64,000 nt of DNA from Ascidiella aspersa (GCA_963924565.1 OZ004611.1:26660001-26724000); one strand, 5' to 3'; positions 26,620 to 57,354 are shown, numbered from the stretch's first letter. Made by a program: numbers and translations. Notes: generated by a model not told the origin, from the letters alone.

Positions 26620-26648
26620 GGGATTTTCCCTCCAACAGGAAATTCCCC
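26620..26648. promoter_or_regulatory. Pair of NF-kB/Rel consensus sites upstream of peptide gene A
   Basis: GGGATTTTCC (26620-26629) and GGAAATTCCC (26638-26647; reverse complement GGGAATTTCC) both match GGGRNWYYCC and are 8 bp apart, ~1.5 kb before the ATG. Motif match only. Confidence 0.4.
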
Positions 26649-28112: not shown

Positions 28113-31100
28113 ATGGTCGAGTTTACAACCAGCAATAAGTTGTTCCTGATGGCTTGTTTCGCGCTCCTAATCGCTTTCTTTCTCACGCAACAAGAGTGCG
28201 ACGCCGTTCCACTGGAAGCCAACGTAACCCAAGGTAAAACTTCATTAGTTTTATATTTTGGCAAAAATGAAGCAAATGCACTCTATGTATCAGACTTGAC
28301 AACTTTCAAAGTCTGCACTCCTTCGAGAAGCCCAGAAAATAGCCCATCGACACATGGCTATTTTAGCAATATTTTATTTTCTTGTTTTAAAACCATTTTT
28401 ATTTCTGCTTAAATAAATAAACTTTAACCAAGAAGTACCCAACCATCGGTTTTATTTCTATAGTCTCAGAAAAATAATTCTGACCTTTACGTAACATAAC
28501 TTATTTTTAATGCTTATACCAGTAATCTAAACTATTTTAAAGCGGCAAAGTGACCATAATACATTTAGAGATGTTTCGAGCAATATACTTTGGTGCCTTC
28601 AGAAAGGCTTTTACCTAAATCAGTGTAATCTTTAGGCTTATTTGTTTTACGTCATTTCACTTTTTTGTAGGACTCGCAACGCATTGGACAGACGAGCAAT
28701 CATACTCAAACCTGACCTACGAGAACGAAACAATTATTATACTGGCCGAAAACCAGTTTACCAACGAAACAGAGGTAAAATAAAAACTTGTATATAGGTA
28801 TAAAAACGATATCCCGTAGTCGTGGGCGTATCCTGGTATATCCCTCATAGGGTGCCATTTTTAACGCTCAAGGGTGCCGAGAGATATTTCAAATTCTTTA
28901 GGATTTCAATTTTGCTCTATTGGTGAGCTTCTTGATACAAATTGTTTGTGTACGGTAAAACTGCAAAAATTAAGAAGATTTTATCAACTTTATTGCACAA
29001 TTAATGTGCTGTTTCAAGTTCATTGTAACGTTACAGTTAACCACTCAGCAAAAATACGAGCAAGGGTGCCACGTATATTATAAAAATAGTATACTATTTA
29101 TAATTTCTGCAGGGTGCCGCAAGCCGAAAAATGTTGCGAAACAGTGGGTTAATAGGTTTTCCCGGAAAAGCGGGTCTTAACTGCTCACAATATATTTTTT
29201 CATCATAAGCTAGTTCAAAATAGCAATTATACAATTTATAAAAAAAGAATAAACTATAGTCGAAACATAAATCATGATTTCAAAAGTTTTCTCTATTAAC
29301 AATTAATATCGGTTCTAGCTTTATAAAGTTTTAGGCCTTCCCTAAGCTATACGCGTAAAATTAGTCAAGTTTTGCCGCATTTATTCAAAACTAAATAAAA
29401 CTAATACTCATGGAGTTCTCACAGGATTAAGAAAAAGGTTAAACAATAACTAACAAACTCCTGATGTCAATAACTACTAGAAGCCATATGTGAAAAAAGC
29501 TTATTGCAAAATAAACAAAGATATTGCCCCAAAAAACTACTTAGCCATATTTGTGTAAAGAATTATCACAGATAGTTGACATATAAAATATTCCATAGCG
29601 GTTTTTGCTTTATAAAACAGGGTGTGTAAATAACATTAGCTACAAAAAGGAAAAGTTCGTAATAACTGGCCTAAAGCGGTCACAATGTAGCGCCATATAC
29701 CAAGAATCGTAAACAAAAACAGTTTCTGCTGTGTATAATCGCATTTGAATAACACAAAGCTTAATTTATCAGGTGAATGTGCATCACATCGAAAAACGCA
29801 GCGTCTCAAATCGAATGAAAGGAAGATGCAAGCGATGTTTCTGCAAGTTCCGATCGTGCACACAGGTCAGACGAAGATGTAAGTTGTGTTTTTTTATACT
29901 TGTGTGTCTTGGCTTCACGATAAATTGTCAAACTTCACGATAAATTGTCAAACATCCCATGACTTTGTATAAAAGTAAATACATATACAGCAAAGTAATA
30001 ATAAAACTTTTCAATTAATTTTACGATTGCTTTGCTATGTACATGCATATTTACTTTACTTATAGAAACTGACGATTCCAGTATAGGATAAATATATACT
30101 CCTTTACAGAATGTCTGATCCTAATTTTACTCGGGTTTCCATGACTTTGATTACGACAGAATTGTCGAAAGAATATTTGCTTTTATATTTTAAGTATTCC
30201 CCGTAATTTACTTGCGAGAGCGAGGAACTGAGAATAATTATCTTGTTTGTTTTTTTCGACATTTAATCTGCTATCGTTCTAATCGTTTACCTAATAACCC
30301 TACTCCTAAAAATACCAAATATAGCGACAATTGGACTTTTGTTTCGATATTTTGTGTGCGTATAATATATATGATTTGTGAAACCTTCTGTGGCATTTTT
30401 GGCGTGCTAAAAATAAAAAAGGTTAGTACACTATAATAAAGAAAGTAAGGCAGCCCGAAAAAAAAACCTTCGTATTTAAAAACCTTTTGCGGAAAAAAGT
30501 CCTGACTAATCGGGACAGCTATATATCGGTCGAACTACGTCACAGATTAAGATCGTTCCTAATTCAATTCTCCCGTCGAGTGGTCAACAGGTATCACATT
30601 TCACGCTGGAAAACATTTCAAATTTCTCACGGAGGTTTCATTGAGAAAAATGCGACAGGGGTGTTCGTTTGGCCGCGATATTTTAGCCAGAAAACGGGGT
30701 GAACCAAGAGTTTTTATTGACGATCACTACAACCTAAGAGAGCGGGGGCTTTGTCCAGCTTTAAAGGTTCTGTTTGTGGGGTACACAGGGTGCCACTCTT
30801 GTGTCACATGCTGCACTGAGTGTTGATAGTCCTGTCTTGTGATACACTTGCGTCGCATTCGTAAATAGGCCAGTTCATCTATCGGTGAAAACAGGCCTTA
30901 TAACCTCGGGTTACTCGCATTCATTACGAAATGTGTGCCAGTAACTATTTTTCTGGGAATATTTTCGCATCTTTCTTATCCTAATCCAACAATGAAACCT
31001 TTCGGTGCAATCTGTTTGTTTTTTACCCTGTTTACAGGCATAAAAGCTTACAACAATGGCAGAAACACAAGGAAAAACGTGCATCTACACAGTTTATCTG

Positions 31101-31891
31101 TCGCAAAAACTATTTATTAACATCATGACCGTGGAATTTAAAAAAAAAAAAATTTGACATTTTTAGGAGACAAAAATAATCCTGTGAACATGACAATTCG
31201 TTTCATGGCATATTAAGCGCTTTCATGAAAAAGTTGAAAAATGGCGGCATATTCCAGCGCGTAAAACATAAATGGCCGGGTGCATATATTTCATAATAGG
31301 GATCTCCAGTAATATTGAACCAAAGGACTACTCTTTACCAAAAAGTAATATCGGTACTTTGTACGATTTTGCGATAATACTAGGGCCGATCCAAATTACT
31401 ATTGACATTTTAAACACAATTTGCAAACTAATGGAACAACTAATTTTTTTACGTAAATTCAATGGGTTACAGTAAGTTAACAACTAAATACAAAAGAAAA
31501 CTTAGGACTATTAACTTGAAAAATTACTACTGTACAATTTTTTCAATTTTGCCTCTTTAACTGCAGTAATAACGTTATTAATTCTTATTTGTAGCATACA
31601 TTTGCCAAAATATGGTTGTTAGTATGCTTGTTGCTATCGGAATAATTGCAGTATCGGGAAAATCTATAGGTCGTAACATGTCAACATCAGTCGAATTAAC
31701 GAAAGCAAGCAGATATGACTTTCCTGCATGCTTTTTTACAGCACCACAAGCCAAAATATCGACATGTTCGATTCGATTTATTTTTAAAGTGTATTTTTAA
31801 CGCAGGGCGCAAAATCTGCCTGCTTTGCCACATCCGAGTTTGCAACACGGTCGTTTTCGGTAGAGCGACACAATACTGGCGTTCCGGCTAA
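28113..31891 (+). CDS. Cysteine-rich cationic prepropeptide A (turgencin-like candidate antimicrobial peptide), 138 aa
   Basis: Exons 28113-28233, 28671-28774, 29773-29878, 31806-31891 (GT-AG, phases 1,0,1). Protein MVEFTTSNKLFLMACFALLIAFFLTQQECDA-VPLEANVTQGLATHWTDEQSYSNLTYENETIIILAENQFTNETEVNVHHIEKR|SVSNRMKGRCKRCFCKFRSCTQVRRRWRKICLLCHIRVCNTVVFGRATQYWRSG*. Signal peptide, acidic propiece, KR site, 54-aa mature part with 15 K/R and no D/E. Confidence 0.85.
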
Positions 31892-34800
31892 CAAGATGTA
31901 AAAGTGACCCTAATCACTTTGTCGCTAATTCGACCCCGGAATCCGAAAATGAACACTCGAAATGAACTCATCTCAAACGAGAAAACGACCAATGACGCAT
32001 TTTTTTGTTTGTGTGAAAACAGTTCGTCAAGTTTTTTGACGCTTTGTATAATTATTTATTTATGCCGTTACCTGTTTGAATTTTTTGCTGTTGTTGTTCT
32101 TTTATTTTATTTACTTTGGAATTTTAAGTTATTTTGACAACGAATTAAGGGTGGCCCAGGGATGGCATTTTAACCAGTGCCGTTAAATCAAAAGAACAAA
32201 ATTGTAAAAAAGTAATCACTAATTAAGTTCGCTAAAGTAAGGGGATACCCTTTTATATAAACATTTAGCGTTGTCTAACAAAGGGATATATATGACAATT
32301 GTTGTGCACGTTTCGCATGATTTATTTTACCTATATCTGCCAGATAAAACAAATTTGCATCTAAACTTGATAACCGTGTGCATTAGTTGCAATTTTTCGC
32401 AGTATTATGAATAGTAATATCACCATCATCGTATTGTGTTTTTTTTATCAACATTCACAAATATAAAAAAAAACTTTCTGATCGCACGATTTTGTATTAA
32501 TTATTTTTAAAGAATTTAAAGGAAAAAAACAATTTTAGTCGGATTTTAATCAAATTTATTACATGCTTGGGTATTCTAATTTTAGTTCTAAGTTATGTTT
32601 CAAAAATAGTACTGTGCTCGACGGCGTTTGTCGGTTAGTCAATTGGATCAGGTTTTTATAGCCACCCAGGTAAATTATTTAGCTTGTAAAGTACCAATCT
32701 TGGTATATGTCAGTCCATCACATTCGTCAGAAAAAAATACAATTTTATTAAAATTTGATTGTGAAGGCAGGTGATTCTGGTCGAGATTTCAATTTATTTT
32801 CCAGTTTTCCTTTATTCAGTGATTCTAATCTAATTTGGATAATAAAAAATAATCTAATTAAAAAATAGAAGAAAAAATCATGCCGTCCTAGGTTGCTCGA
32901 CAACGTAACACACATATTTCGTTTACCCACATTGCGCAAACTTCTGGCAATTTCGGAATGACTCAGGGTTGGGTGGACTCTGTTTAGTGGGCAACATTGC
33001 GCGGTTACAGTGTTGCGATTGGTGACAAGTCGATAGGCACAAACAGAAACCACTACAGGCCAAAGGACTTCGTGAGAGTGTCTATAGCGAAACCGAGGTA
33101 CGGTTACATTCGCGAATTGCTGTCAGCGTAAATACACGGCAGGGGGGGTCGTAGTTAAGCGCTTGGGAAAGCGGGAAATGCAAGAAATTTTCAAATAAGT
33201 CATTTTTGTTAATTTGTGTGTTTAAATACTTACAAGGCTTCAATGGTTAACATATCAAGGGTTAAGGCGTCACTTCATGTTGTTAAACCACCCAAAAAAT
33301 TAGTGGAATACAGGCTAGTTTAGAGAAACAAATGCATTTTATGTTTAGTAAGCTTTGAAGCATTTGGAATGTTATTTGTGGTATTTTTCTATCTGCACCG
33401 TTTTAGTTTGCCTTTAAAAACTGACCGGCATTATAAAAAAAATGCGCATCTCAAAATGCAGGGGATTCTTTAAATTTTAAAAGTGAAGTTAAGTGGTTTA
33501 CACACATTTATGGCGAATTTAAATCAAATCAAACGAAGCGAAAAATTGCTGTAAGATAAATTTACTAGATTTATGTCGTTTTATGTTGATGAGCTTCAAA
33601 GCAGGTAAAATATTTTGTTTGTATCAGCCTTTTCCGTTATTTTTCGAAAATAAATATAATTTAAAAAAAGCAGAAATATGTTATATCCCAGGTTTTCAGT
33701 TTATTTACTTTAGAACAGGGGTTCTTAAACTGGGGTCCATGGATCCCTTAGGGGTCCGTGAAATAGTTTTAGGGGGTCCATTAAGGCCTAATTAAAACAT
33801 TAGTGCAAATTAAGAAGTAATCAGATTATCAAAGAAACCTGTTTAATTAAAAATAAAACGGTTTTGAACTGAATGTGTTAAGACACCATTTCACTTTCAC
33901 ATTTTTGGATCGAAATCAGCTGACTAATTAGGTCTATTTGTATTGTGACGTAAATTTTTGACGTCATTTTTGCATTTTGTTGTCTCCGAGTGTCCACGCG
34001 AGATAAAAAAAATTGGTTCCGTTTATTTACCTTTGCCAAAAAAATAAAAATATTAAACCATGCAAGAGTGCAAGGTACGTATGCTTAAAACGCCCAATAT
34101 TTCTTGTACCGGCCTGCAATGTAAAGTCTACAAGCGAATCAAATTCACTAACCTTTAACGTGAGAAAAGTCTCCAGAGGTGAAACAAGTTGACATAATAT
34201 ACGATTCGGTTCACAAGCGCATCGCTTCCAGGAAAGCAACAACTAAGCGATGTAGCGTAAGTGGTACAAATGCTAATGCTGTGTGTTGTAGAGATACGAA
34301 ACCGGTAATTCCATTCATGTCAGGACAACAAGGTTTCGCATCGGAAAGCCAACGCCCATGGTTCGAAGTTATATCTCGGTGTTTTGAAACAGCCAGGGCT
34401 TTATTGTCAGGGCTGGGAATCAGACGCGAAGTCTGGTGTGAGTAAAACATAGCTGCTTTGGCGGCGTGACTGGGTGCCTATACAACCTGGCTTCGGTAGC
34501 TTGCGCCACTCCTTATACGTGCTACAGCTCATCATTCCAGGGTTAAACTAGCTTCCTGCCGCACCATTGGACTAATGGGTGTTGTGACAAGCATCACATC
34601 ATGAAACTGTACATTGGGCTATAGCGCTGAAGCCGTATTTACATACATGCTACCGAAAAAACGACAGAGAAAAAAGTGCAGTTTTTCGAAGTTAAATCCG
34701 TTAAATGAAGCAGAAAATCCAAGCGAGCGAGCATAGACCTGACAGCCTACATGTGAACGCATAATAATGCAACGTGCTTAGCGAGATTAAGGCACTGACA

Positions 34801-35907
34801 GTGAACCGAAAGTGAATTTAATAGATTACTACAAGTTGAATTTGCGTAAAAGGGTGTACTTGAGGCATGAAAGGCAGTATGCTTGCTAAAATGTTCAGTT
34901 ACCTACACAAATCTGATTTTGTTACCTAGACAACGTTTACCGCCGAAGGAGCAACTCCTAATAAAAAAATTTGAGTGTAAAATTCAAACGACTTTTATTT
35001 CCGCCGTTAATGAGCAGTTTTTGGCCCGCCGTCACTATAAAACCAAATGAACCCGTTTTTTATGGCTTTACGGTGCTTTTATCGTCAGCCTTTTGTGGGA
35101 TTACCATAATTAGGTTATAACTGCTGGTAAGCCCAAGTTTCCCGCGCTGTTAACAACGGTTTATTTGGCATTTGTCGACTTGGTCACAATTGTTTGTTCC
35201 CCCCTGTGTTCACTATCTCAGTAGCGAAAACAAAGGTGGAATATAAAACTAATTTAAAGATAGCATTTGTCAACGTTGGTCGTTGTTGTTTGATCCGGTC
35301 GTATTGTTTGCGTGTCATCCTTGCGCAGATGCTTTATGGTAAGGGCAAACAAAAAACCTACTGAGTTGAGATTTGCACATTTCGACGATTGATTTCAAAT
35401 CTTCGGGCGTAATTCCCATTTGTGAATAAAATTTTCGCTCGCTGCAATGGCCTCGCGCAAACAGCCAATATTTTAACTAGAAATGAGTGGGAATTCCGCA
35501 GCGTGGCAAATCGTGCGTAAATACGAAAATTCCAAACAAAGAGAGTAAAACTTTTTTTACTTAATCACGTTCAAAGCCCTTACAAGTGGAACGGCAAGTT
35601 TCACAATGTAGTCGTTGTGTATTGCGCATCAACTTTTATTGCTACCAGACGCAAAACGTGTCGTTTAAAAGCCAAGCCGATATTTGCTTTTCCGAAGTGA
35701 TAGCCCAATGTTGATTGATATTATAGGGTAGATTGGAGTAAGGTAAATGATCAGGCAGCTATTCAAGGCCGTATATAAATATATCTTTGTTTACTTTGGG
35801 GCGCGACTGTTATGTTTCGTATTTGGAGTCACAGTTGGCGGAAAAAATTGTAATCATTTTGTTTTCAAAAGTCAAATGCAGCGAGAGTTGTCTGACACAA
35901 CTTATGG

Positions 35908-35915
35908 TATAAATA
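35908..35915 (+). promoter_or_regulatory. Candidate TATA box of peptide gene B
   Basis: TATAAATA ~390 bp upstream of the ATG, with a splice acceptor (ttttcag, 36238) in between. Motif only. Confidence 0.3.
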
Positions 35916-36295
35916 GGTGTCTGATATCGTACTCTCGAGCGTAAAGGAACACAAAGTGGCAATCATTTAAAACTTTTAAAAATTAAAAAGTACCAGATGA
36001 CCACAGTATAACATAATGAGTGTTTGACGTCATTCATCCAAAAGAAGGCTACTTTAATAGATTGCTAAAATAAGTAGAAGAATTGATATAATTTCTAGAG
36101 GACCGTTTTTTGAAGTATGAAGACAAAATAGTGCAAAATAAAAACGACAATTGCGGTTTGAACTTGACAGTGGTCAAAAGAGTTTTTTAACTGCGAAAGT
36201 ATTGTGTTACGGATTAACGGTTTGTCTTTAATTTTCAGATATAAAAAAGCATAAACTAAATTTGGAGCTCAAGTATAGTTGCCTTCTAAAGAAAA

Positions 36296-38864
36296 ATGAA
36301 CTTACATATCTTTCTGCTTCTGATGATTGTGGTAATTCTAGAGATATCAACAAAACCGAGCCAAGCAAAGACACCTTTTGATTCAAGCAGTCGTTTGAAA
36401 GGTATTTACAAATTCATTTAAACGTTTTACAGTGACAAATGACAGCCTCGAGGGCGAAAACATTAATGCGGGAATGCTACGAAAAGTCCCTGCAAAGCAC
36501 ACAATGTATGAATGCCGCCGCCAAAGCGAAGACTCAGCCCACATGGCACAGCTTCACAGTTTTCGGCAGAAGGCGAACTAGCAAAACCAAACGCTTTCAC
36601 TATTTTCTTGACTTTCACACACTAAACGAAACCCACATACTCTTTCTCTTTTGAATAACATACATAGGCATTTTAAGGTGTTTAATGAACCGTAACGGTT
36701 TTTACATTGCTCCAAGTCTCTATAAACATCCAACTTGAGTAAATACAGTTAGATGAAATAGTAACGGTACCTCAGGTTTTGTAGTGATCAACAGTGCAGA
36801 AAAAATTCATATAGGACTGTCTGTTTACTATGTATTGGACAGGAATTAATAGTAATAAAGACCAGTAATAAAAAAACGCCTAGTAATAAGGACCACGCAT
36901 AAACACTAGATCTTAAGCGTGGTTTCAATACAAAAAAGCCATAACATTTGAAAAAAATCGACATTTCGTTATTTACAAATGACTTAGCAATACCTTATTC
37001 CATCGATCGCAATCGTCACTCGTAATTATTGCCAAAACGTTTCTAAACAACGAAATGTCGCTTTTATCGAAAACTTAACGCTGTTACTTTGATCAAAATA
37101 GGAATTGCGTGGCAGTAATTTAAGAAATAAATATTCTTACAATTTTCGTCCATTAGTTGAAAAGCATTCAATTTAGTATTTGTACTTACACAAATAATAT
37201 GTTACTTGCATTGCAGTAAACGAACGAACGGTGGAACTCGCAAATAACGAGAAAACTTCAGCTATCCAAGGCCCGGTAACTAACCCATTTTATTTTTTCG
37301 ACGATGATATTATTCTAAAATTTTCGTTCTTATTGCTAAAGACTTGGACTTTAATTAACCTTTAACAGCTTTTATGGTATGAACCGCGCTCTTGGCTTTA
37401 AACAATGCTTTGCTGTACGACACATATTGTAAAATAAAAATAAATGAGTTTTCACATTAGAAACGTGTTTTGGGATGATTTCAAAAGCATAATTATTAAA
37501 CGTACCCAGATAGTCAACTCCAAAACGTGTCGTAGGTCATTATCAGTTCTTTGCTAAAACAGATTTCCTTATTGAAAATTTAAATTATTTAACGTACTGC
37601 CGAAGGTTACTAATTCTCGATAACCATATAAATTATTACCTTTCTTGTTTTGCTTCAAATTTTAGTTGACAGTCGTTCTGTTACGTCACAAGCGCTCGCA
37701 CCTCAACGAAAGCGAAAAACGGCAGAAGCGCTGTCACCGATACTGCAAAATCCACTCATGTAAAACTTACAAGCGGAGAACAGGTAAAAATGTCAGACTA
37801 TATACGTCAGTAGAAATGTGCGGCAATTCGTATAGCTTATTACAATACCAGATATTTTGGACAAAAAGTCCAAAAACAAACATCCTAAAACTAACATCCA
37901 AATCAAACGTCCTAAGGCTACGCCTATGCGTACACCAGTAGTAAAGATGCAGGTTTTATGTTACTGTTTTCTTATTATCAATAAGTTGCATTTTAAATTA
38001 TTGCTATTATTTTGGCCATATCTCATTGTTGGTTGCACAATAAAACTTGCATTAAAAGTGCGTCGCTAACTGAAAAGGGTTGGGAAGGACTGCTTTAGGA
38101 AATATAAAAAGGATTAATAGGTTTGTACTGCATCCGCAATTATTATAAAGTGCTATGGCAATTCTTATTCAGTGTAATAAATTTCCAATCTAAGGGACCA
38201 TGTTGGCCAATACTTTAAAAGTTTTAACGTAATGTTTTCAGGTTGCCTTGACAGTATTTGTTTACTATACGTCACCTTGTAAAGTGGAAAACGTTAGGTT
38301 AAATCGTGAAACTTAACTTTAAAAAAGTTAAAAAAAAGCTTCTAAAAATTAATTGCTTATTAGTAAAACGTCGGCACCGGTAATATCTTAGTATCGGCGA
38401 TGTCCGATTATAATAATATTATTGAAGCCGATACATGATATTATTTGATCGCATCGGCACTCGTCCGGCACTATTGTGGTATTGGTGCCGATTTGGCTGA
38501 GGTTTGCGATCTAACTTACAGATGTTTCTACGTCGAAAAAAAAATCTCTAAATACAGAATATAAATGTATTACTTTGGTTTTTATTTGACCAGATTTACT
38601 GAGTTCACAAAAGTATTGATGGTATATGGCGTTGGGTGGGACGGTTATACTTTTCACCCAAAGAGTGTCGATATCACATAAAATACGAAGTTTCGGGCAT
38701 CCGTCCAATTGTTTTTCGGAAACTTTCTTATGGCTAACCGAAGTCCGTTGGAATTTCATTTATGTACACCATAAAAAATGTACTGAAATTTTTATATTTT
38801 TGCAGTGCATAAAAGATGTGCTGTATGCAAGCTTCGTGTCTGCGGAATTCAGCTTCCCTTGTGA
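36296..38864 (+). CDS. Cysteine-rich cationic prepropeptide B (turgencin-like), 113 aa
   Basis: Exons 36296-36401, 37217-37275, 37666-37783, 38806-38864 (phases 1,0,1). Protein MNLHIFLLLMIVVILEISTKPSQA-KTPFDSSSRLKVNERTVELANNEKTSAIQGPLTVVLLRHKR|SHLNESEKRQKR|CHRYCKIHSCKTYKRRTVHKRCAVCKLRVCGIQLPL*. Two furin-type RxKR sites; C-x3-C-x4-C-x11-C-x2-C-x4-C. Confidence 0.87.
37915..38189 (+). repeat. 275-bp near-identical duplicate of 40861-41135
   Basis: Both run from aggctacgcctatgcgtacacc to gtaataaatttccaat, same length, only a few substitutions. Confidence 0.9.
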
Positions 38865-40522
38865 GAAAATCATATGCGATCGGAAGGCACTACGAGATCT
38901 ATGTTGATGCAGACGCCTTCTTTTCTTTCATCCACGATTAATATTTTGCACAGTCACGGTCACCTAGTGCGCGCTTTTAAGCAAAACGAACGGGTGTAAA
39001 ACAAACTGTAATCTTTCAACGTATTGCTCAGTCATTTCAAGTACGTTTATTTATTGATGTTTGCTGTATGAGCGATCGTATTTCGAACATATGTTTCACC
39101 AAGCATAGTTTACATACTTATATATAGTCCCACTGTGTTAAAATCGGTCCACGTTAAACAATTTTATGGGGGGTAGGGGATGTATCTACTGAAAATCGCT
39201 AGGTCACTTTGGCAAGCACAATCGGTTGTACCAATTAGAATGATTTTCAGTGCCGTCCATTAACATGCAAAATTAATCGAGGTATTTTAGTTTGACGTAC
39301 ATTTTACCCGGGGCAATGAGTTTTGGAAAGCTTCACCTTTTCTTTTTATACATTTGTTTTCTGCCTATAAAAACGTGGTTGCTTCTGCTATGTTTGTACT
39401 CGCTTTGACACTGTGATTATGTATATTCTGTATATATTTTTCGCAAATATATATAAAATATCAAAAGGTAAACTAACTTTGCAACAGCAAACGTTTCTTC
39501 GCAAATATATTTCAGGAAAAATTAACGCAAGCATTTTAAACTTAAATACGACAAAAGTAGTAAAAAGTTGGCGAACCATAAATCACAAAAATATGGTGTC
39601 CAAGATCCTAAAAGGTAAAAAAAGATCTAAAATACCTTTATTTAAAAACAGAAAACTGAACAGTTACGCTAAAACGGCAAGATCCAAAAAAATTTTTGCT
39701 CAATGTAAAAATAACAACATGAATTCATAACCGTTTTTGTAACGCACAAAAAAAAACGCAAGCTCAGTTGGTAGGGTGTGGAATCTACAGTTTCGCTAGG
39801 AATACAAGTGTGTGTAGCTGGCAAAAGTATGTCAGCAAAAATCATCCGAAAATTTGGTAATAAGTATTCGGTTGTCGGGCATGGATGCCGCAGACGATAA
39901 ATAACCTTTTGGTTTGTATCCAAACGGGCGAATTTGAAAGGTTAAGCCGACGACTTTGTAACCACCCAGACCGTAACGTAGCGTTCAGTCAACAACATAC
40001 TGTAAAATAACGTCCAAACGCGAAAATAAAAGTTCAAGGGATTTCTTCTAGACCAGACGTTAGGTTTTAACATATCTGCGAAGAAATCCTCCGCGTATGT
40101 GTTTTTATGGCTGTTGAGCATTTTACTGTTTGAGGAATAGCTAAGCAAATAAGCCTATTTAAACTGTTAAAAAGTATTGAAATGAATACATTCCATTGAG
40201 TGTTCGCTGTAAAATAGCACAGAGGTTAAGAAATCACTGATCGGAATGTTTTGATCAAATCGAGTCTAGAATGAGGGAATATATCAAGGTGGTGCAATTG
40301 TTAGTGAAACAGATTTAAACTGGAAAGTTCTATTGCCGTGGGTTTTCCCTTTGCTATACGCAATACAAACAGGCTTTATCATTATAAATCGTTATGAGTA
40401 GTTGTTATAGTAGCAAGGCAATACGACAACAGCAAATGGAAATGTGGAATGCCTCGATATTTTATGAGTGGTAAACAACACAAACGGATGTTAATTGTAC
40501 GAAAACAGAATATCCTTTAGGG

Positions 40523-41038
40523 CATTGCTTCCCAACCAGTGGGTTGCGAAGCATTTCTAAATGTTACAGTTTTGTATTAGACCAGGAAATGATTGCATTA
40601 TGATTGCGTAACATTCATGCAACAATGTAACAAATACGTAACAGTTATATGTGTTTTGTTGAACTAACTGCTTTAGCACGTACACCCAGTGGCGTAGCCA
40701 GCCAAAAATGGGGGGAGGGGGGCAAAAGCATGACTATTGAAAGGCGTGACATGCCTGTGATCGACTGTTGTGGTACTGCTCATAAATGCCCCCCCCCCAA
40801 AAAAAAAAAATTTAAAACAGTAAAATATTTATAAATTTTTTTTGGGGGGCATGGCCCCTCAGGCTACGCCTATGCGTACACCATTAGTAAAGATGCAGGT
40901 TTTATGTACCTGTTTTCTTATTATCAATAAGTTGCATTTTAAATTATTGCTAATAATTTGGCCATATCTCATTGTGGGTTGCACAATAAAACTTGCATTA
41001 AAAGTGCGTCGCTAACTGAAAAGGGTTGGGAAGGACTG
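40523..41038. mobile_element. Nested hAT-type MITEs
   Basis: Outer element cattgcttcccaacc / ggttgggaaggactg with TSD ctttaggg/ctttagga. Inner element 40687-40874 (cagtggcgtagcc / ggctacgcctatg) with perfect 8-bp TSD cgtacacc. Confidence 0.78.
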
Positions 41039-43716: not shown

Positions 43717-44285
43717 GGCAGAAACGTTTTGTGCTTCATTTTGCCCAAAGAGCAAAGGACCGATGTTGGCCAACAAAGACCAGTTACAATGTAGTATGCA
43801 TGGGACAAGTAAAACGAGGCTTCATAAGATTAAAAAAAATTATTGCATTGACTGAATTTAAAATCTCGCAAGACAGAAATGTTATAAGATTCATATTGCC
43901 CAAAGGGCAAGGACAGATTTTGGCCAATAAAAATCAGTTACAGTCTTGGGGTGTGGGACAATTAAAACGGGGCTTCGCAATTTTGAAAAAAAAAATTGTT
44001 GCATTGACTGAATCTAAACCTTCGCAAGACAGAAATGTTATAAGATTCATATTGCCCAAAGGGCAAGGACAGATTTTGGCCAATAAAAATCAGTTACAGT
44101 CTTGGGGTGTGGGACAATTAAAACGGGGCTTCGCAATTTTGAAAAAAAAAATTGTTGCATTGACTGAATCTAAACCTTCGCAAGACAGAAATGTTATGAG
44201 ATTCATATGGCCCAAGAGCTAAGGACCGCTTTTGACCAATAAAATCAGTTAACATGTAGTGGAATAGGACAATTAAAGCGGGACT
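43717..44285. repeat. 156-bp tandem repeat, ~3.6 copies, upstream of peptide gene C
   Basis: agacagaaatgtta recurs at 43871, 44027 and 44183 (period 156). The central units are essentially identical and the outer units are diverged. Confidence 0.9.
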
Positions 44286-44563: not shown

Positions 44564-47500
44564 ATGAACGTGAAAATGTCACTGGTTCTACTGATGTGTA
44601 TTTTGCTGGTGGCGCTGATTCAAACGACAAAAAGTGGCGCAATACAAGATGAATCGCTACGGCATCAAGGTAAGACAATATACAATTCTAGTACTGTATT
44701 GGGATTTAGACCGTAAATAGCTCTGTTCGAATTGGAAACAGTGGCGTGTAATCCAACAGAGAACCGTTAAAATATTTACTAAATAATTGATATTGGTTGA
44801 AATTAGGCTATTTAAGAGAATTCACCTCTCGGCACTATGCATAGGCCACTAGTCAACAATACAATTCTAGTACTGACTTAGGATTTAGTTTAGGACTGTA
44901 AACGGTTCTGTTCGAATATAAAATAGTGGCGTGGAATCTACAAGAGGACGGTTAAAATACAGACGAAAATGTTTAATGTCGGTTGAAATTAGGCCACCTA
45001 GGATAACTAAGGTCTCAGTACTATACATACTAACCAACAGTACAAATTTACAAAATAATTATGTACACATTAAATTCACATAGCTTAAGCTTTGTTTAGT
45101 GCTTTAATGACTACAAAATACTTTGTCCAGCTTCATTGCTAAATGTTAACAGAAATCCAGTTATACAAGTGCGTGAGAAGCGAGTTTACTGCGCAAATGT
45201 CTTAGAGGGGGCACCACGAATAAAATGTGTGATCTTAGGCAAGTTGTGCACTCTTTTAAAAAGCAATTGTACTTCAGAAATTTTCACTAAACTGTCCCTG
45301 GTTTCTTTCAATGCGCTGGCATAAGTTGTTTATCGAGTCACGGTTCAATGCACATCTTAACCTATTGTTGCGTTAAGCAAAGGTCCGTGACCAACTGTAT
45401 TAAACTTTAAAAAGAAATATATATAAGCCCTTGATGTTGGAAAATGATTTTCGACGTCCAAAATGCTACCTACTTCTGTATGGGCCTTGATATCCATATT
45501 TAGCATACCAATATCTACCATACCCATTACGCCGGATAGAATTACAGCGAAAAAGACTATACGTTGGGTTCTAACCTTAAAACTTAAACGTATTTCTGAT
45601 AAATCTGTACTTGCTCTAGTCTACACTATAGTAATGGACGGAATAACTTAATGTGACCCACAGACCAAACACGTACTACCCAAATATTTTATAATAGTTC
45701 TAACATCAATTTTACCAAATAAATGGATTTTAAAGAAACAACCAGATACCCAGATAACCATTTTGTAAATCATTCTGTGCTTACAACTAGGGATGTCCGA
45801 TTATATCGGTTCGAAGCCGATACACGATGCCAAGTTGTAGTATCGGTACACGTCCGATATTATATCGGTTACACAAAATATAGGATTTTTAGCCATGATT
45901 TGCGATATAAAGCAGCGATTCTACCTTGAATATAAATTTAACAGAAACATAGTAGGTTAACAACTGGACCTAACTAAACTTCCCAACGCTTTAAAACAAA
46001 TATCTTTACATGTTGTAATTTTATCTCTGCTGGTTTTGCTTAGTAATGACGTCATTTGGTATCGGATCGCGATACTTTTTATTCAAATTATATAGGGGTA
46101 CCGGAAAGTGCTAAGTATCGGACATCACAACTTACAACCCTGGGCTGTTTATCTTCATATATCATAACATGAAAACTGAACGGCGAAAAATTATATATAT
46201 TAAATATAAAAACCTGTATTTCAGGAAAGCTTTCGACGAATTTGGCCAGCCAGTCTCAAAACACCGAATTGACTGCTCTTGACGTCGAACTGGTGCGTTT
46301 CTAAACGTAAAAATATTGTATTTTTTTATCTAAAAACACAATTTCAATTTCAGATCGGAAGATAATGATGTTGTTTGCTAAATTGAGCATGTTTTCCTTA
46401 AACAATATTTACAAAGAGACTTTCGGTTTAAAGCTTTCAGCTAAAGTGTACGACGCAAAATTAGCGTTGAAATTTATTTTGGTAAAAATATTTACCATAG
46501 AAATCAGTTCATATTCGTTGTTGACTTTTATAAAGAATCTTCTATCTAACTTGAATTGCGTTTTTCTGTTTATTGTGGCAATATTGCGAGTTTCGATTTT
46601 TTAAGGAAAAAATTATCATCGCAAAACGTTGCTCCTTTTTTCCTAATTGTCTAAATATCGCGAAGGGATATATTTTACCGTAGTTTCTAGTTTGGATATT
46701 CGTAACTCCAATATAAACACAGGACAACATGGAATAACGAAACACTTGCAATAATACATAAACAGAAGAAACGGCATGGTACCTTATAAATCCAAATATA
46801 TACCTAGAGGTGAAGACAGATTAAAAACTCTATAGTAAAAAATAAGTAAAACTGTCAGTAAAAAATGTTACTGTTTAATTATTGCAAACTCCATTCAAAA
46901 CGTTTTTTAAAACAATTTTCGCCAAATTTTGCAAGCGTGCCCTGCTTCCTAAATGCATTCTTAAACACGGAGATTGTGCGTTAAATAGGTCTTAACCAAA
47001 ATATGTGCGCTTTCAAAGCAGGAAGAAGACTTGCCACACGTGAGAGTTAGACGATCCTACCGCAGGAATTACTTCCACCGACGATGCAAGATTTTTGCTT
47101 GCAAACTACGCTCGTGTGCTTTCCTCAGAAGATATAAAGGTTGGATTCAAATTATGTGTGTTTTCATGCGAAAGTCAGTTACAAGAATTTAACGCAGTAT
47201 TATTAAACTGTGTGCCTCGCGCGCAGAACCTTTTTGTCATTTCGCAAAATAAACCATACGTGTTATATTAGGAGGCGCAGCCATGCGAGACTTGAATGTA
47301 CAATATCCTTTATAGGTGAATCAGGTGGCACTATATAAAGACAACTTGTATTGAAATCTTGACACGCTTTTGCACAAACGAGTTACATCAGGTCACAGTA
47401 GGGATCTGATGAAGCACGGTTGTACGAAAGCTTACCAAGACTTTAATATAATTTGTCTTTACATAGTGCCACCTGATCACCCTATTTAGAGTTAGACAAA

Positions 47501-48268
47501 TACAGCTACCTATGATATAGCTGGCAATAGGGGTGATTGTTAAATTAAAATTGTATTAGTTTGTAAAACGTTTTAGACGAAATTAATTTTGACGTTTAAC
47601 CCTTTCTCCTTAATTTTATTGCAAGTTCCAATAGTCACTAAATTGCGAGGGGTAGAACTCCTGAAAAATTTGGAAGGGGGCACAGATTTAATTCGTAGCT
47701 TTTCCGTCATTGTTAAAACAATGTCTTGCAAAAAAATAACAAAAGCTGTTAGAATGCATTCTACTTGCGATTTGAATTACAATAGAGGGTTTACAAAGGA
47801 AAATGTCAAAAAAAGTTATACTGGTTCTATATACTCCCCTTAAATGTGTAAGTTGGTCGGACAAAGCAAACGAAATACCGCCGCTTTAATGGTGGCCGAT
47901 TAAGGGTTTTGTGGCCCGAATACAAAGCTTTATGGGGGCTGTTCGCAAACTGCAAGCGCTTTAACTTAAAGCAAGCTACACTGTAGCTCGCTAAAGGTTA
48001 AAAACAAGCGCTAATATCAAAGCCCACACAGAAGTATACTATAGGTAGCATTTTGAACGTTTTGAATAAATCTAAAAAAAAAAAAGTGATATTCGGAACG
48101 TTTAAAAAGTCACCTACTTTTGTGTATGGGCTTTGATATTCTTACTACGTCTTACTACTGCAACCTCCAAACTTTATGCTCCAAAACGCTATATCTTCTT
48201 GTACATTTTCAGTGAGAAGAAACTGCCAACGCTGTCACCGGTTCTCGTGCGGAGTCAAGTTATTTTAG
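44564..48268 (+). CDS. Cysteine-rich cationic prepropeptide C (turgencin-like), 115 aa
   Basis: Exons 44564-44669, 46225-46292, 47022-47139, 48213-48268 (phases 1,0,1). Protein MNVKMSLVLLMCILLVALIQTTKS-GAIQDESLRHQGKLSTNLASQSQNTELTALDVELEEDLPHVRVRR|SYRRNYFHRRCKIFACKLRSCAFLRRYKVRRNCQRCHRFSCGVKLF*. RVRR furin site; 46-aa mature peptide with 15 K/R, no D/E, 6 Cys. Confidence 0.88.
44679..45045. repeat. Diverged ~180-bp tandem duplication in intron 1 of gene C
   Basis: tacaattctagtactg ... ctgttcgaat ... agtggcgtg ... ggttgaaattaggc occurs twice in tandem. Confidence 0.75.
45788..46130. mobile_element. hAT-type MITE (gggatgtccgat family)
   Basis: TIRs tagggatgtccgat / atcggacatcacaa; perfect 8-bp TSD cttacaac (45780-45787, 46131-46138). 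Related decayed pieces near 10050-10380, 21270-21356 and 38395. Confidence 0.8.
47311..47484. repeat. Inverted repeat / MITE-like hairpin in intron 3 of gene C
   Basis: atcaggtggcactatataaagacaa ... ttgtctttacatagtgccacctgat with ~50-bp arms. Confidence 0.7.
48013..48140. mobile_element. Small palindromic MITE (aatatcaaagcccatacagaagtag family)
   Basis: Arms aatatcaaagcccacacagaagta / cctacttttgtgtatgggctttgatatt. Full copy at 62660-62788; decayed or half copies near 4990, 25510-25660, 45463 and 57055-57130. Confidence 0.7.
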
Positions 48269-52611: not shown

Positions 52612-55600
52612 ATGTATACGAGTCATAAAGTTGTTCTCTTTCTTGTCATTTCTTTAATGATTTTGTCGGATTTTGGTGAAACGAGGTACACAAGACGGTC
52701 TTCAGGTAAGTGATGCTTTTAGCACAAAAAGGTGTATCATTTGAGCTTATAAATAATTGTGAATTTTATACTATACAATGAAATTGTATGGTCTCCTATC
52801 TAAATTATAGCTTTACAGTTTTACCTAAAAAGTGTTAGTTTTATTTACAATACACTATATAGCAATGATGTATCCGGCAAAGGTAACACACAACCGGGTT
52901 AAGAAAATTACGAAGTACCAAAAATGCTTAATCTAAAATCAAACAAATAACTTATAATTCGTGGTATTCTCTGAAATAAGTATTGGGGCTGTGACAAGGC
53001 CAGACATTAGTCAGATTTTATCAATGGGTCAACTAAATCACGAAGAATAGAGCCTAAGAATATTTAGCCTTGGTAATAAAGCCAGGTCATCTATTTGAAT
53101 AGAAAACAAACAAAACCTGTTTTTATACAGCGAAGTATGTATTTCTATCTATGCTGAGAAATGATTCATCATCAGTTTTTACTAAAAACTCTAATTTGCT
53201 ATATGTACAGAAAATTACATTTATTGTCTTCGTGAGATTTCAAGTGTTACGCTTAAAAATAAAACAGTAATCCATATTTTTTTCAGAAGACGGAAACAAC
53301 GACATGAAGCGTGAAAATGAGATTCCAAGAGTGGTACGTAATAATTACGTATAAAAAGCAAAAACAACATACGCCAAAAAATCGTTCTGTTTTAGCTGCT
53401 GGACATTACCAACCAATGTACTGTACCTCATTTTTTCTTGTTTCCACTTGCCGATTTGCTTTAAAAAGTGATTATAAGTTAAGAAAATATATCTTAGGAT
53501 CACTTTGTCACTTGTTATGTGCCAACAAGCAAACCATGTTTACAGTTTTAACCAAAAGTGCCTCATGATTTCATGTAGGCAGGGGTTCTCAACCTGGGGG
53601 CCTTTTTATAAGGGGTCCATGAACAAATACTATTTTTTTAATTTATCATCACTAAGTCTACCGGTACTCCACTATAACAAACTAAAATAAATTAAATCTT
53701 TCTTTGTATACTTTTAGATTTATTAATAACATTATTTTAAAATTTGCGCAATGGCTACCCCTGCAAAAAGAAGAAAATATAATAAATAGTTATCTGTGTT
53801 GTATTTATAACATTTAAAGTTCTTGCTACCGGTTACTGTATAAACCAGTTTTTTAATCAAAATGACGTTTCCTAATTTTAACAAAAGGTTGAAAAAATAG
53901 GGGGGTCATTGATTTCTCAAAATTTTCAAAGGGGGACACGGTGTAAAATAAGTTGGGAACCCCTGATTTAGGGTGTCAAAAAATGAATCAACATTTTTAT
54001 GTAGGAAGATGCAAAATGAATGCTAAGAGTTGGTAAAATGTATGCCAATATGAATCTATTGAATCAAACTGTCAAGCGGTTCAACCATATTTATACACTC
54101 CAACAAAATACAACGACAGCTTGGTCTTATTTGTTTATTTAAATATTCAGAAATTTTGTTGGCTGTGTGTATAACCCAAACGTTCTCTATATTATTGCTT
54201 AACCTTAACAATGTAAACGTAATATATCAATTATAAAACCTGTAGATTATTATTTATGTTCGATGCCAGCATTTCTATACATTTAGGTCTGTCACCTTCA
54301 TTTTTAAACGACGTTAATATAAACCAGAGATTTTCAATCGGGGGTCGCAAAGCGTTTTTAGGTAGTGCTTATTTTTCGAATTAGTATAAAATTTACAAAA
54401 CGTTTGTACTTTAATTGCGCGGTAGGTTTATTTATTTAAGCACCTGTTGAGATGTTATTTTTCTTGATTTTAATTATCTACTCGACTATATAAAACAGGG
54501 GTCGGCAACCTTTTGCTATAGTCGCGGTTAAAACAAACTCTGCAAGATTTTTGCGGCCCGTAATCAATTACCACTTTTGTTTAAAATGTGCGACTTTTAA
54601 GTATTTATCACAATAACCATTATCAGGTGCGGATCAAATTTCTTTATGTAACTGAAGCTTAATCGGGAACACACAATAAGACCTGAAAAGCAACTATACC
54701 TAAAGAAGAAAATTCTTTAAAATTATACGTTCAAACTCGTCTAAACAAGACCTAATCCTGTCAGAATACGTCCTAAATTCATCTCCTGTAAACTGTAGGT
54801 AGAGAGTGTGGGACGATCGGGGGTCGTTGGCCTGGCATCGGCCGTTTTGGTGTCGACGTTTGGACGCCCTAGTTCAGTGGTTCCCAAACTATTTTATTCC
54901 GTTGCCCAACGTATTTTACAAAACAGATGGTGGCCATTGTTTTTCACATCTATAGTTATGACTAGTACATATTAATTACCAAAAGTTTTCCAATATTATA
55001 AACATTTTTATTCCTTGATACCATTTGTCTAACAACAAATGTAACTTTATTGAGTTTCTGTTCAGTCTGCTGAAGTTAAACAACTTGCGCGCACAGTTTT
55101 CGCAGTCACAAGACATTTTAGATATGCCAACAATTATTTTAGTAAAACAAAACGCGTAGTTGCAACATTTTTAAATAGCTCTTTGGTCCACCTAAGGTAG
55201 TCTCATGGCCCACAGTTTGGGAACCACTGCCCTAGTTTGACCGGCACCGTTAGGGAGCCGCTGTTTTGGCACCAGATTTTTGGCCCTGTTTGGGGTTATT
55301 TAGACGGTACAACGACTATTATGTATTAGATCTATTTTTGTTTTATTTATTCCAAACTGTGTTTTATTCTGACGTTGTTGTTCTTTTTTCGGTATTATGA
55401 CTCGAGTCCGTTTAATCTATTAAAGTCAAGCAACGCTTGAAGCTGAAAACAATAGCGTTTGTTCGGTTTAAGTAGAAATAAAATAATTCAGAAGTAAAAG
55501 TGACGCTTTGGGCACACACAATATATGCACATATTTAACTCGTTGCCGTTGTTGAAGGTTTTTCTTAATCACGTAAAGTAGTCTATCCGAGTAAAACTAG

Positions 55601-57354
55601 TAGGAATTAGGTCGGAGAACGTGTAAATAGTGTTGGCTTTTTCATGCGCATAACAAGTTTGAGGTGTTCAAATTCACTTACAACAACAATCTATTTAAAT
55701 ATAAAAAATGATGCGCGCAAAGCACGATTTTTTTTGCATTTCCGTATATTTAAAATATCCAAAAACATAGGAGATGACCTCGTGTTTAGTTTGTAAGATA
55801 TCGCGTACCAGATGATTTAGCAGGATCCGGATCGTGGGCTGCGGTTCCGGCTGGCCCCTAGTATAAAACATTAATTCCGTTCGCAGACAACATAACGTAA
55901 AATATTATCATACAAACATTTGAGGGTCGGTGAACGCTTCAAGGTCACCAAATGGGTCCGCCAAGACACAAAGGTTGCGAGCCGCTGTTCTATAAATTTT
56001 GAAGTTGGTTTTTCATGTTCGCTGCTAGTATTTTTACTTATTGCTGGTATTTTTACTTATTTCTGGTATTTTTACTTATTGCTAGTATTTTTACTTGCTG
56101 GTATTACTAGTATTTTTCACTCATTGCTTTTTGAGGAGATGGCAATATTATGTGATGTTGATACAGGTAAACGCTACCACTGAATCACGAGCGATGGAGA
56201 GACAGAGACGAAGCACAGACGACGACTGGAAGTTTTACTGTTTCACCTTCACAAATTATTGCTTGCGTCGCAGCTGCAAAGAAGTGCTGCACAGAAGAGG
56301 TAAAAAATTCAACAAAACGGTTTTTTCAAACTAATTCAAACGGTTACTTCAAACTAGTCGTGTCAGAGCGCACATAATGTCTTCATTGAGTTCTAAATAA
56401 ATCGAAAGTGATGGTCAGAAATAATTAATCAACGAGGACTGTTTGTGTTGGAACAGTTTATGGGAGAATTTTAAAGGTTAAACAATCGAAAATAACTGAT
56501 GCTTAATTGTTTTAACCGTTTTGTGTTAAAATAAAACTTGTATAGTTCAGCACTTTAAACAGTATTAGTGGCGGGTAGATTTGTGGTAACCTCAGTACTA
56601 TTATTGCGACGAGTCCAACACCAGTACCAATACCATATAGGTACAGTTAACCCTAATTTGGTGAAATACTCCTGAATACCAACAGTTCAATAAAACTGTT
56701 AAAATACTGCGTTGTATGTCGATCAAAAATATGTTTGCCTAAAAAACAGCAAAAAAATGCGTCATAATGAGAATGAAAATAAGCAATCACATAAGAACTA
56801 AAATATTCAAAATTCTCCTATTAATTCGATCTGCTCCTAAAGTGGCTTTTAAATCATGAAAGTCAATAATTTCTTTAAAAATGAGTTTGCGTTAGTCTTT
56901 CTGCAGAGTTTAAAAGCGTTTTAAAATTTAAAAAAATGAAAAGAATATACTCTTTTGGTAAAAAACGCATTTTGTTTTCTATGGATTTCAATAGAAACCT
57001 ATTTCTTCATATCGTATATCAAAGAGTCTTTATATTAAACTATTAAAAAATGAATAATGAATAAAGAGTTATTCAAAACGTTTAAAATGATAGCTATACT
57101 TCTGTATGGGCTTTAATATTCTTACTATAAGTCCTACCGCAACCTTCAACCATTTTTATCTAAAAAAAATAATTAAACTTCAAAATATAAACTCAAAGCC
57201 GCTTGAGTATTGACACTTTTTAAGACTGTAGCAATTAGCATACTTCAAACGCATAACATTTCTCTCATAAATTTCAGGTGTCCGAAGCATAGCGTTCCGG
57301 GGCTGTATGAGGTGTCATATGAGCTACTGCGCTGGTCAAAGCGCTCCTTTCTAA
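52612..57354 (+). CDS. Cysteine-rich prepropeptide D (divergent member of the same family), 116 aa
   Basis: Exons 52612-52705, 53287-53333, 56167-56299, 57278-57354 (phases 1,0,1). Protein MYTSHKVVLFLVISLMILSDFGET-RYTRRSSEDGNNDMKRENEIPRVVNATTESRAMERQRR|STDDDWKFYCFTFTNYCLRRSCKEVLHRRGVRSIAFRGCMRCHMSYCAGQSAPF*. RQRR furin site; C-x6-C-x4-C-x16-C-x2-C-x4-C. Confidence 0.85.
53580..53965. mobile_element. hAT-type MITE in intron 2 of gene D
   Basis: TIRs caggggttctcaac / gttgggaacccctg; TSD imperfect. Confidence 0.65.
54496..55860. mobile_element. Nested hAT-type MITEs in intron 2 of gene D
   Basis: Outer ends caggggtcggc / gctggccccta with TSD atataaaa/gtataaaa. Inner element 54875-55229 has perfect 16-bp TIRs cagtggttcccaaact / agtttgggaaccactg and perfect 8-bp TSD ccctagtt. 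Confidence 0.78.
56022..56130. repeat. Minisatellite, ~16-19 bp unit (ct(a/g)gtatttttacttattg)
   Basis: About 5-6 imperfect copies immediately upstream of the exon 3 acceptor of gene D. Confidence 0.75.

What the first reader, a model, noticed from the sequence alone, without database searches (positions are those of the whole stretch)
37732..38864. Cysteine spacing approximates the turgencin framework, suggesting a disulfide-laddered helical hairpin
Seen: peptide B has C-x3-C-x4-C-x11-C-x2-C-x4-C, and a second furin-type site (RQKR) directly before Cys1 would release a 36-aa peptide. Established (from memory, to be verified): turgencins from the colonial ascidian Synoicum turgens are 35-36 aa AMPs with C-x3-C-x4-C-x(7-8)-C-x2-C-x3-C and nested C1-C6, C2-C5, C3-C4 bonds. 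Inference: these genes may show the precursor and exon structure of a turgencin-related superfamily, with a longer Arg-rich loop and x4 rather than x3 in the last interval. Similarity outside the cysteines is low, so convergence is possible.
Basis: partly seen in the sequence, partly recalled or inferred. Interest (0 to 1): 0.8.

Follow-up and report, generated by a model that had tools for sequence, protein, structure and literature searches.

The report
Four sea-squirt cysteine-rich peptide genes
A sea squirt carries a cluster of four related genes for secreted, strongly positive, six-cysteine peptides that look like a so far undescribed family of defence peptides, but their resemblance to the known turgencin peptides is only partial and not proven.

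Summary
Splicing 37666-37783 to 38806-38864 gives C-x3-C-x4-C-x11-C-x2-C-x4-C, with RQKR directly before Cys1 and 36 residues to the stop. This is gene B of four tandem ascidian paralogues (A-D, 28113-57354). All four share four exons, intron phases 1-0-1, a signal peptide, a propiece and a conserved convertase site [R/I]-x-[K/R]-R|S.

The turgencin reading is only partly supported. The turgencin spacing is as recalled, but only x4 and x2 are family-wide, and x3 and the RQKR site are B-only. The conserved cut gives 46-54 residues, not 36. The turgencin motifs CXMAC and KKXGG are absent, and only A ends in Gly. Two of this genome's five vanabins match turgencin spacing better (4 of 4 non-loop intervals) than B (3 of 4), and all five end in C-x2-C-x4-C. 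The spacing therefore marks ascidian disulfide-rich proteins generally.

No homologues were found. One RNA run gave no exon coverage. Fold and disulfides are untested.

Best reading: an undescribed family of cationic host-defence peptides (0.6).

The parts
36296..36401 (+). Gene B exon 1: start codon, signal peptide, start of propiece; phase-1 donor
   Evidence: hydrophobic core residues 5-15, mean KD 3.8
37217..37275 (+). Gene B exon 2 (propiece), phase 1 to 0
   Evidence: best of 3 candidate exons; an in-frame 3-nt deletion at 37218 in one contig of run X2
37666..37783 (+). Gene B exon 3: two basic sites and Cys1-3 (x3, x4); phase-1 donor
37684..37695 (+). RHKR|S, the convertase site kept in all four genes; would release 48 aa, net +12
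   Evidence: invariant R-S columns in alignment A1
37720..37731 (+). RQKR directly before Cys1, gene B only; would release 36 aa, net +10
38806..38864 (+). Gene B exon 4: Cys4-6 (x2, x4), short hydrophobic tail, stop; no C-terminal Gly
28113..31891 (+). Gene A (exons 28113-28233, 28671-28774, 29773-29878, 31806-31891): 138 aa, acidic propiece (net -9), IEKR|S, mature 54 aa net +15, seven Cys (2,1,4,10,2,4), C-terminal Gly
44564..48268 (+). Gene C (exons 44564-44669, 46225-46292, 47022-47139, 48213-48268): 115 aa, RVRR|S, mature 46 aa net +15, Cys spacing 4,4,11,2,4; exon 2 uncertain
   Evidence: the chosen exon 2 is not among the top 6 of 7 scored candidates
52612..57354 (+). Gene D (exons 52612-52705, 53287-53333, 56167-56299, 57278-57354): 116 aa, RQRR|S, mature 54 aa net +5, Cys spacing 6,4,16,2,4; exon 2 uncertain
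   Evidence: the chosen exon 2 ranks 2nd of 31 candidates

Best explanation
Four tandem paralogous genes of an ascidian encode secreted prepropeptides. The signal peptide (exon 1) sends the chain into the secretory path. A furin-like convertase cuts at the conserved [R/I]-x-[K/R]-R|S site in exon 3 and frees a 46-54 residue, Arg-rich peptide with three disulfides, probably a compact, mostly helical two-armed fold whose arms come from exons 3 and 4. The peptides most likely act in host defence: the cationic face binds anionic microbial surfaces and the aromatic and aliphatic residues enter the membrane. They form a family of their own, not shown to be turgencins. Shown from sequence: the gene models, site, Cys pattern and charge. 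Inferred: splicing, cleavage, fold, disulfide pairing and function.
For: Four genes 4.3-5.7 kb apart with the same 1-0-1 intron phases, GT-AG ends and intron 3 always between Cys3 and Cys4 of the shared core. Family-level non-Cys similarity, z 4.75. Signal cores of mean KD 3.0-3.8. R-S and two exon-3 Cys invariant, three exon-4 Cys invariant. Mature net charge +15, +12, +15 and +5. Low identity between paralogues (22-39 identical residues over 113-116), as is usual for defence peptide clusters (established knowledge, recalled). Arg-rich secreted peptides of Ciona are antimicrobial (PMC7387483), as are six-Cys turgencins and St-CRPs (PMC7024374, PMC13208793). The same x4 and x2-x4 spacings fall in or at the end of helices in a model of a host vanabin.
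Against: No RNA support: run X4 (about 6 in 100 of the run read, tissue not known) had zero depth in the bins holding B exons 1, 2, 4 and A exons 1, 3, 4, and none of the 15 joints shown (150 more not shown) matches a predicted intron. The propiece is acidic only in A (-9) and C (-3), not in B (+3) or D (+2), so charge-masking does not hold family-wide. Gene D is only +5. No homologue with known function. Strict NF-kB-like sites lie within 1.5 kb upstream of only 2 of 4 genes. The N-halves of A and C and the C-half of D have stronger strand-like than helix-like hydrophobic periodicity (0.53-0.57 against 0.05-0.26), so the helical fold is not settled.
Confidence: 0.6

Rival explanations
1. The genes are true homologues of turgencins: one superfamily of nested C1-C6/C2-C5/C3-C4 helical hairpins, with a longer loop. 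Compatible with a defence role.
For: x4 and x2 intervals equal in 4 of 4 genes and x3 in B. Gene C and turgencin A share A-C-K-L around Cys2, and A, B, C have K after Cys2 and Ser before Cys3 where turgencin A has K and Thr (by eye; not scored). Both come from ascidians.
Against: Last interval x4 against x3 in 4 of 4; first interval 3, 4, 4, 6; CXMAC and KKXGG in 0 of 4; C-terminal Gly in 1 of 4; turgencin B lacks the K-L likeness; host vanabins V1 and V5 fit the turgencin spacing better than any of A-D. The host has vanabins and Ciona/Phallusia-like proteins, which points to a different ascidian order from Synoicum (taxonomy recalled).
Confidence: 0.15
2. The peptides are cut-down relatives of vanabins (cationic, disulfide-rich, helical vanadium-binding proteins) and bind or reduce metal ions through Lys/Arg.
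For: 5 of 5 host vanabins end in C-x4-C-x3-C-x(12-17)-C-x2-C-x4-C, and 4 of 5 have x6 before it as gene D does; all have hydrophobic N-termini and a phase-1 intron inside the Cys array. Vanabin2 binds V(IV) through Lys and Arg (PMC9486056).
Against: No non-Cys similarity between A-D and the vanabins (z 0.57, 575 of 2000 shuffles), while each family scores z about 5 internally. Vanabins have two exons with the intron after Cys6 (Cys5 in V4), not before the terminal x2-x4 block. The Vanabin-2 family search of the genome hit only the C3 cluster, 3 of 3 candidates; Pfam gave no vanabin hit on the A-D exons.
Confidence: 0.08
3. They are secreted ligands with a non-antimicrobial role: hormone-like or paracrine signals, receptor- or channel-directed deterrents, or binders of sulfated polysaccharide in tunic or egg coat.
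For: Signal-pro-furin architecture is shared with peptide hormones (established knowledge); D is only +5 and B and D lack an acidic propiece; St-CRPs show that ascidian six-Cys peptides can be weak antimicrobials (PMC13208793).
Against: Very high Arg/Lys content and fast divergence among tandem copies fit membrane-active defence peptides better than conserved ligands; no conserved homologue in other tunicates was found, though those searches were weak.
Confidence: 0.22
4. The gene models are chance or dead copies.
For: No exon coverage in the one RNA run laid; exon 2 of C and D is uncertain.
Against: Four intact frames, shared phases and invariant Cys and R-S; 0 of 40 null simulations gave a model; in-frame indel in B exon 2.
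Confidence: 0.05

Closest known systems
Turgencins A and B (Synoicum turgens; PMC7024374)
   Same: Ascidian, six non-adjacent Cys, cationic, x4 between Cys2-3 and x2 between Cys4-5; x3 between Cys1-2 in gene B only; a short A-C-K-L likeness between gene C and turgencin A.
   Different: Last interval x4 against x3; loop 10-16 against 7-8; Arg-rich against no Arg; no CXMAC or KKXGG; amidation signal in gene A only; likely mature length 46-54 against 35-36; turgencin precursors and genes unknown.
Vanabins (Pfam Vanabin-2 PF11437; PDB 1VFI; five genes in this genome at G000:C3:25.475-25.501 Mb)
   Same: Hydrophobic N-terminus, cationic, disulfide-rich; terminal C-x2-C-x4-C preceded by C-x4-C; phase-1 intron within the Cys array.
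   Different: 16-18 Cys against 6-7; an extra Cys (x3) in the terminal block; two exons against four, intron at another place; no non-Cys similarity.
Ciona linear cationic helical AMPs (Ci-MAM, Ci-PAP and others; PMC7387483)
   Same: Small secreted Arg-rich ascidian precursors in multigene families.
   Different: No Cys; order is signal, cationic peptide, anionic tail, whereas here the propiece comes first.
St-CRPs (PMC13208793) and rusticalin Cys repeats (PMC6339383)
   Same: Ascidian six-Cys peptides or repeats.
   Different: St-CRPs are 18-19 aa, neutral, with adjacent Cys; rusticalin spacing is Cx6Cx6-7Cx8Cx7CC. Neither fits.

Membership tests
Turgencins | Six non-adjacent Cys with spacing 3,4,7-8,2,3 | tested here: not met
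   B 3,4,11,2,4; C 4,4,11,2,4; D 6,4,16,2,4; A seven Cys 2,1,4,10,2,4. Non-loop intervals matched: 3 of 4 in B, 2 of 4 in A, C, D.
Turgencins | Shared motifs CXMAC and KKXGG (PMC7024374) | tested here: not met
   Absent from 4 of 4 translations.
Turgencins | C-terminal amidation (needs a Gly donor) | tested here: not met
   Only A ends in Gly; B, C, D end LPL, KLF, APF.
Turgencins | Cationic | tested here: met
   Net +15, +12, +15, +5.
Turgencins | Nested disulfides C1-C6, C2-C5, C3-C4 | not testable with these tools
   The spliced peptides were not modelled whole and the folding output gives no disulfides.
Turgencins | Helix-loop-helix fold (populated but unstable in water) | tested here: inconclusive
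   Exon 3 alone modelled as one helix, pLDDT 69, which says little for a 40-residue half; periodicity mixed.
Turgencins | Shared precursor layout and intron positions | not testable with these tools
   PMC7024374 states that gene characterisation is needed and cDNA attempts failed; no title or abstract start among the 30 listed of 45 papers reports a gene.
Vanabins | 16-18 Cys core, Pfam PF11437 | tested here: not met
   6-7 Cys; the family search hit only C3; no hit on the exons.
Vanabins | Terminal C-x2-C-x4-C preceded by C-x4-C | tested here: met
   4 of 4 genes and 5 of 5 host vanabins; the vanabins have one more Cys between the blocks.
Vanabins | Sequence likeness outside the cysteines | tested here: not met
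   z 0.57, 575 of 2000 shuffles.
Vanabins | Two-exon gene, single phase-1 intron after Cys6 | tested here: not met
   A-D have four exons, with intron 3 before the x2-x4 block.
Cysteine-rich host-defence prepropeptides (general kind) | Signal peptide, propiece, convertase site, cationic Cys-rich mature peptide, tandem divergent genes | tested here: met
Cysteine-rich host-defence prepropeptides (general kind) | Antimicrobial activity and immune-tissue expression | tested here: inconclusive
   Activity not testable; one RNA run of unknown tissue showed no exon coverage for A and B.

The most novel reading that the evidence does not exclude
Turgencins, vanabins and genes A-D are three branches of one ascidian superfamily of cationic, disulfide-laddered helical peptides built from C-x3/4-C and C-x2-C-x3/4-C blocks, so that vanadium-binding vanabins arose by fusing or extending host-defence hairpins like those encoded here. 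These genes would be the first gene-level view of the short six-Cys branch. The evidence is spacing only; non-Cys similarity and intron position give no support.
Probability: 0.1. Interest if true: 0.75.

Novelty: new variant of a known kind. Interest (0 to 1): 0.42.

Why it matters
Cysteine-rich defence peptides of tunicates are known almost only as purified peptides, without genes (PMC7024374, PMC13208793), and a Ciona genome screen discarded Cys-containing candidates (PMC7387483). This cluster gives four complete precursor models with a fixed exon layout, so they can be synthesised and assayed, and the layout (phase-1 intron in the Cys3-Cys4 loop) makes a sharp test once turgencin genes are found. 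The comparison with the genome's own vanabins shows that this Cys spacing cannot assign ascidian peptides to the turgencin family, and raises a testable, low-odds link between defence peptides and vanabins.

Tried and rejected
Homologue searches, all with exon halves and so of low sensitivity: word-index search with the exon-3 alignment, longer proteins 0 of 50 candidates at E<=10 and near lengths no candidate; HMMER over 1.84 billion representatives, 0 at E<=0.001; Pfam, 0 of 10 exons over cut-off (B and C exon 4 are under 20 aa and were not scanned); PDB sequences, only chance rows (an 8-residue match of gene C exon 4 to RPC10 at E 0.9 was rejected as chance); ESM Atlas, no usable hit; Foldseek of the exon-3 model, 0 matches. 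Metagenome locus searches did not run. More family members: exon 3 of B, C, D and exon 4 of A each found only themselves in G000; a loose pattern gave 178 matches against 88 in the control and was dropped; a tight pattern gave 17 matches, 3 of them genes A-C and none of the other 14 with the family layout; none in 100 kb of flanks, with a filter that also missed 2 of the 4 known genes. Internal two-fold repeat of the C-x4-C blocks: 151 of 5000 under independent shuffles but 836 of 5000 under column permutation, rejected. Complex prediction of gene A's exon-3 and exon-4 halves: no answer. No RNA holder listed in the run index. The host vanabin model ranked 1VFI first but weakly (E 7.1; Z 3.5, rmsd 3.8, 52 aligned), and a sequence search with it missed 1VFI; its identity rests on Pfam. 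Literature searches for a described family (listings only unless a paper is cited) showed none; one search found no text on vanabin disulfide pairing; one search was malformed. Earlier scan findings: none.

Full report
**What is there.** The window is G000:C5:26660001-26724000 in a 308.6-Mb, 75-contig genome. The host is an ascidian: the window's GPCR frame at 7771-9186 finds Ciona (45% identity), Phallusia, Clavelina and Styela proteins first, and the genome has vanabin genes. The finding's two coordinates are Cys1 in one exon (37732) and the stop of the next (38864). Joining 37666-37783 to 38806-38864 over a 1022-nt GT-AG phase-1 intron gives Cys spacing 3,4,11,2,4, RQKR directly before Cys1, and 36 residues to the stop.

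**The gene family.** This is gene B of four same-strand genes 4.3-5.7 kb apart: A 28113-31891, B 36296-38864, C 44564-48268, D 52612-57354. Each has four exons with intron phases 1, 0, 1 and an open frame of 113-138 codons. Exon 1 holds a signal peptide (hydrophobic cores of mean KD 3.0-3.8). Exon 3 holds a basic site and the first three Cys (four in A). Exon 4 holds C-x2-C-x4-C and a tail of 5-15 residues. Exon 2 is the weak point: it is the top candidate in B (of 3) and joint top in A (of 12), second of 31 in D, and not among the top 6 of 7 in C. The paralogues share 22-39 identical residues over 113-116, and their non-Cys residues around the Cys blocks are alike beyond shuffles (z 4.75). 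A scan for the exon 3/exon 4 layout gave 0 models in 40 simulated 164-kb regions. It recovered 2 of the 4 real genes and was designed from them, so it is a partly circular control. No further member was found in 100 kb of flanks or elsewhere in the genome, with searches of limited reach.

**Processing.** The site kept in all four genes is IEKR|S, RHKR|S, RVRR|S, RQRR|S (invariant R-S), 9-12 residues before Cys1. It would release 54, 48, 46 and 54 residues with net charge +15, +12, +15 and +5. The second site RQKR|C exists only in B; the four residues before Cys1 are MKGR, FHRR and WKFY in the others. The 36-residue form is therefore possible for B but is not the family's form. It also does not line up with turgencins, where Cys1 is residue 7 or 8. 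The propiece is acidic in A (-9) and C (-3) but not in B (+3) or D (+2). A has a seventh Cys, which could pair between chains (inference), and is the only one ending in Gly.

**Expression.** No RNA holder was listed. One RNA run of the same species label was laid on 27900-39500, about 6 in 100 of its letters, tissue not known. Depth was zero in the bins holding A exons 1, 3, 4 and B exons 1, 2, 4; the reads that were laid sat on repeats (665 of 680 only partly on the stretch); none of the 15 joints shown matches a predicted intron, and 150 were not shown. Splicing and expression remain unshown. One DNA contig carries an in-frame 3-nt deletion in B exon 2, which fits a coding exon.

**Turgencins.** From PMC7024374 (parts 1-4 of 8 of the main text and supplement passages): 35-36 aa, spacing 3,4,7-8,2,3 by my hand count, nested disulfides from NMR of turgencin B, helix populated but unstable, C-terminal amide, shared motifs CXMAC and KKXGG, genes not cloned. 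Against this, x4 and x2 match in 4 of 4 genes, x3 in 1 of 4, the last interval in 0 of 4, the motifs in 0 of 4 and a Gly donor in 1 of 4. The turgencins have no Arg; A-D have 7-11 in A-C. In favour, by eye and not scored, gene C and turgencin A share A-C-K-L around Cys2, a likeness turgencin B lacks. No computed comparison with turgencin sequences was made.

**A control from the same genome.** I recalled that vanabins have similar spacings and tested it. G000:C3:25.475-25.501 Mb holds five two-exon vanabin-type genes (three hit by PF11437, two of them over cut-off; all five). All five end in C-x4-C-x3-C-x(12-17)-C-x2-C-x4-C, so the x2-x4 end of A-D is the vanabin end, not the turgencin end. 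Two of the five carry 3,4,4,2,3 internally and match all four non-loop turgencin intervals, better than gene B. In a model of one vanabin exon these Cys lie in or at the end of helices 23-40 and 57-67 (mean pLDDT 60); its best structural match is Vanabin2, weakly. PMC9486056 (passages) gives vanabins 18 Cys, nine disulfides and V(IV) binding through Lys and Arg. Yet A-D show no non-Cys likeness to the vanabins (z 0.57) and the intron sits elsewhere. The spacing is thus shared by at least three ascidian peptide groups. It makes a helical, disulfide-laddered fold plausible but cannot assign family. I found no text giving the vanabin disulfide pairing, so I draw no pairing from it.

**Fold.** The whole mature peptides were not modelled. 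Exon 3 alone came out as one helix (pLDDT 69), which is weak evidence. On an ideal helix the three Cys of each half span 140-220 degrees, against 60 for the turgencin C-half, so at least one Cys per arm must lie off the helix. Some halves show strand-like periodicity. The fixed x4 intervals (Cys2-3 and Cys5-6) beside a variable first interval also allow a C2-C6/C3-C5 pairing (inference). Nested connectivity is one option among several.

**How it most likely works.** Secretion, convertase cleavage at the conserved site, three disulfides, and binding of a strongly cationic peptide to anionic microbial surfaces with membrane damage (0.6). Only the anatomy is shown; the rest is inference by analogy to Ciona Arg-rich AMPs (PMC7387483, parts 1-2 of 5), turgencins and St-CRPs (PMC13208793, part 1 of 6 and passages). 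Rivals: non-antimicrobial ligand or polyanion binder (0.22), true turgencin homologues (0.15, compatible with defence), vanabin-derived metal binders (0.08), dead or chance models (0.05).

**Novelty.** No homologue in the protein collections, Pfam, PDB or the Atlas, all searched with half-peptides. No description appeared in open-access searches (listings seen, plus passages of PMC10608444, PMC6339383 and PMC7432809); subscription papers and bioRxiv supplements were not covered. The kind of system is known: a tandem cluster of Cys-rich cationic prepropeptides. The framework and gene layout appear to be undescribed. Verdict: new variant of a known kind, interest 0.42. The boldest reading, one superfamily joining these genes, turgencins and vanabins, has probability about 0.1 and would deserve 0.75.

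Noticed in passing
window 45131-45324 (+), inside intron 1 of gene C: A phase-1-compatible open exon of 63 codons with REKR followed by four Cys (spacing 11,6,6), net +6. It could be an alternative last exon using gene C's signal peptide. Such an exon arose in 3 of 40 simulated 64-kb strands.
   Followed up: partly
G000:C3:25475200-25500900 (L043-L049), minus strand: Cluster of five two-exon vanabin-type genes; V4 has 16 Cys, V1 has a long acidic C-terminal tail like VanabinX. An RPS27-like frame (label recalled) lies on the plus strand at 25483162.
   Followed up: partly
L046-L049, vanabins V1 and V5, Cys7-Cys12: Spacing 3,4,4,2,3 equals the turgencin spacing in all four non-loop intervals; a turgencin-vanabin likeness that the turgencin paper's supplement does not mention (vanabin 0 occurrences).
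   Followed up: partly
window 1154-9186 (+): Exons of an LDLa-repeat GPCR (GRL101-like, tunicate-expanded group).
   Followed up: partly
window 2293-3842: Two long inverted repeats (347 and 307 nt, 96-98%) with reverse-transcriptase-like and GIY-YIG-like frames; looks like a Penelope-type retroelement fragment (label recalled).
   Followed up: no
window about 11850-19270 (-): A trypsin-like serine protease exon (GDSGGP motif) near 12100, a Thr-rich exon near 16900 and a thrombospondin-1-like exon near 19200, probably one gene (labels recalled).
   Followed up: no
window 37911-38189 and 40857-41135; 33716-33971; 28848-29110: High-copy dispersed repeats, one inside intron 3 of gene B and one inside intron 2 of gene A.
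   Followed up: no
window 43832-44299: Three tandem copies of a 156-nt unit just upstream of gene C, open in one frame.
   Followed up: no
window 26620-26647 and 52113-52122: Two strict NF-kB-like sites about 1.5 kb upstream of gene A and one 0.5 kb upstream of gene D; 6 such sites in the whole window, no chance test run.
   Followed up: partly
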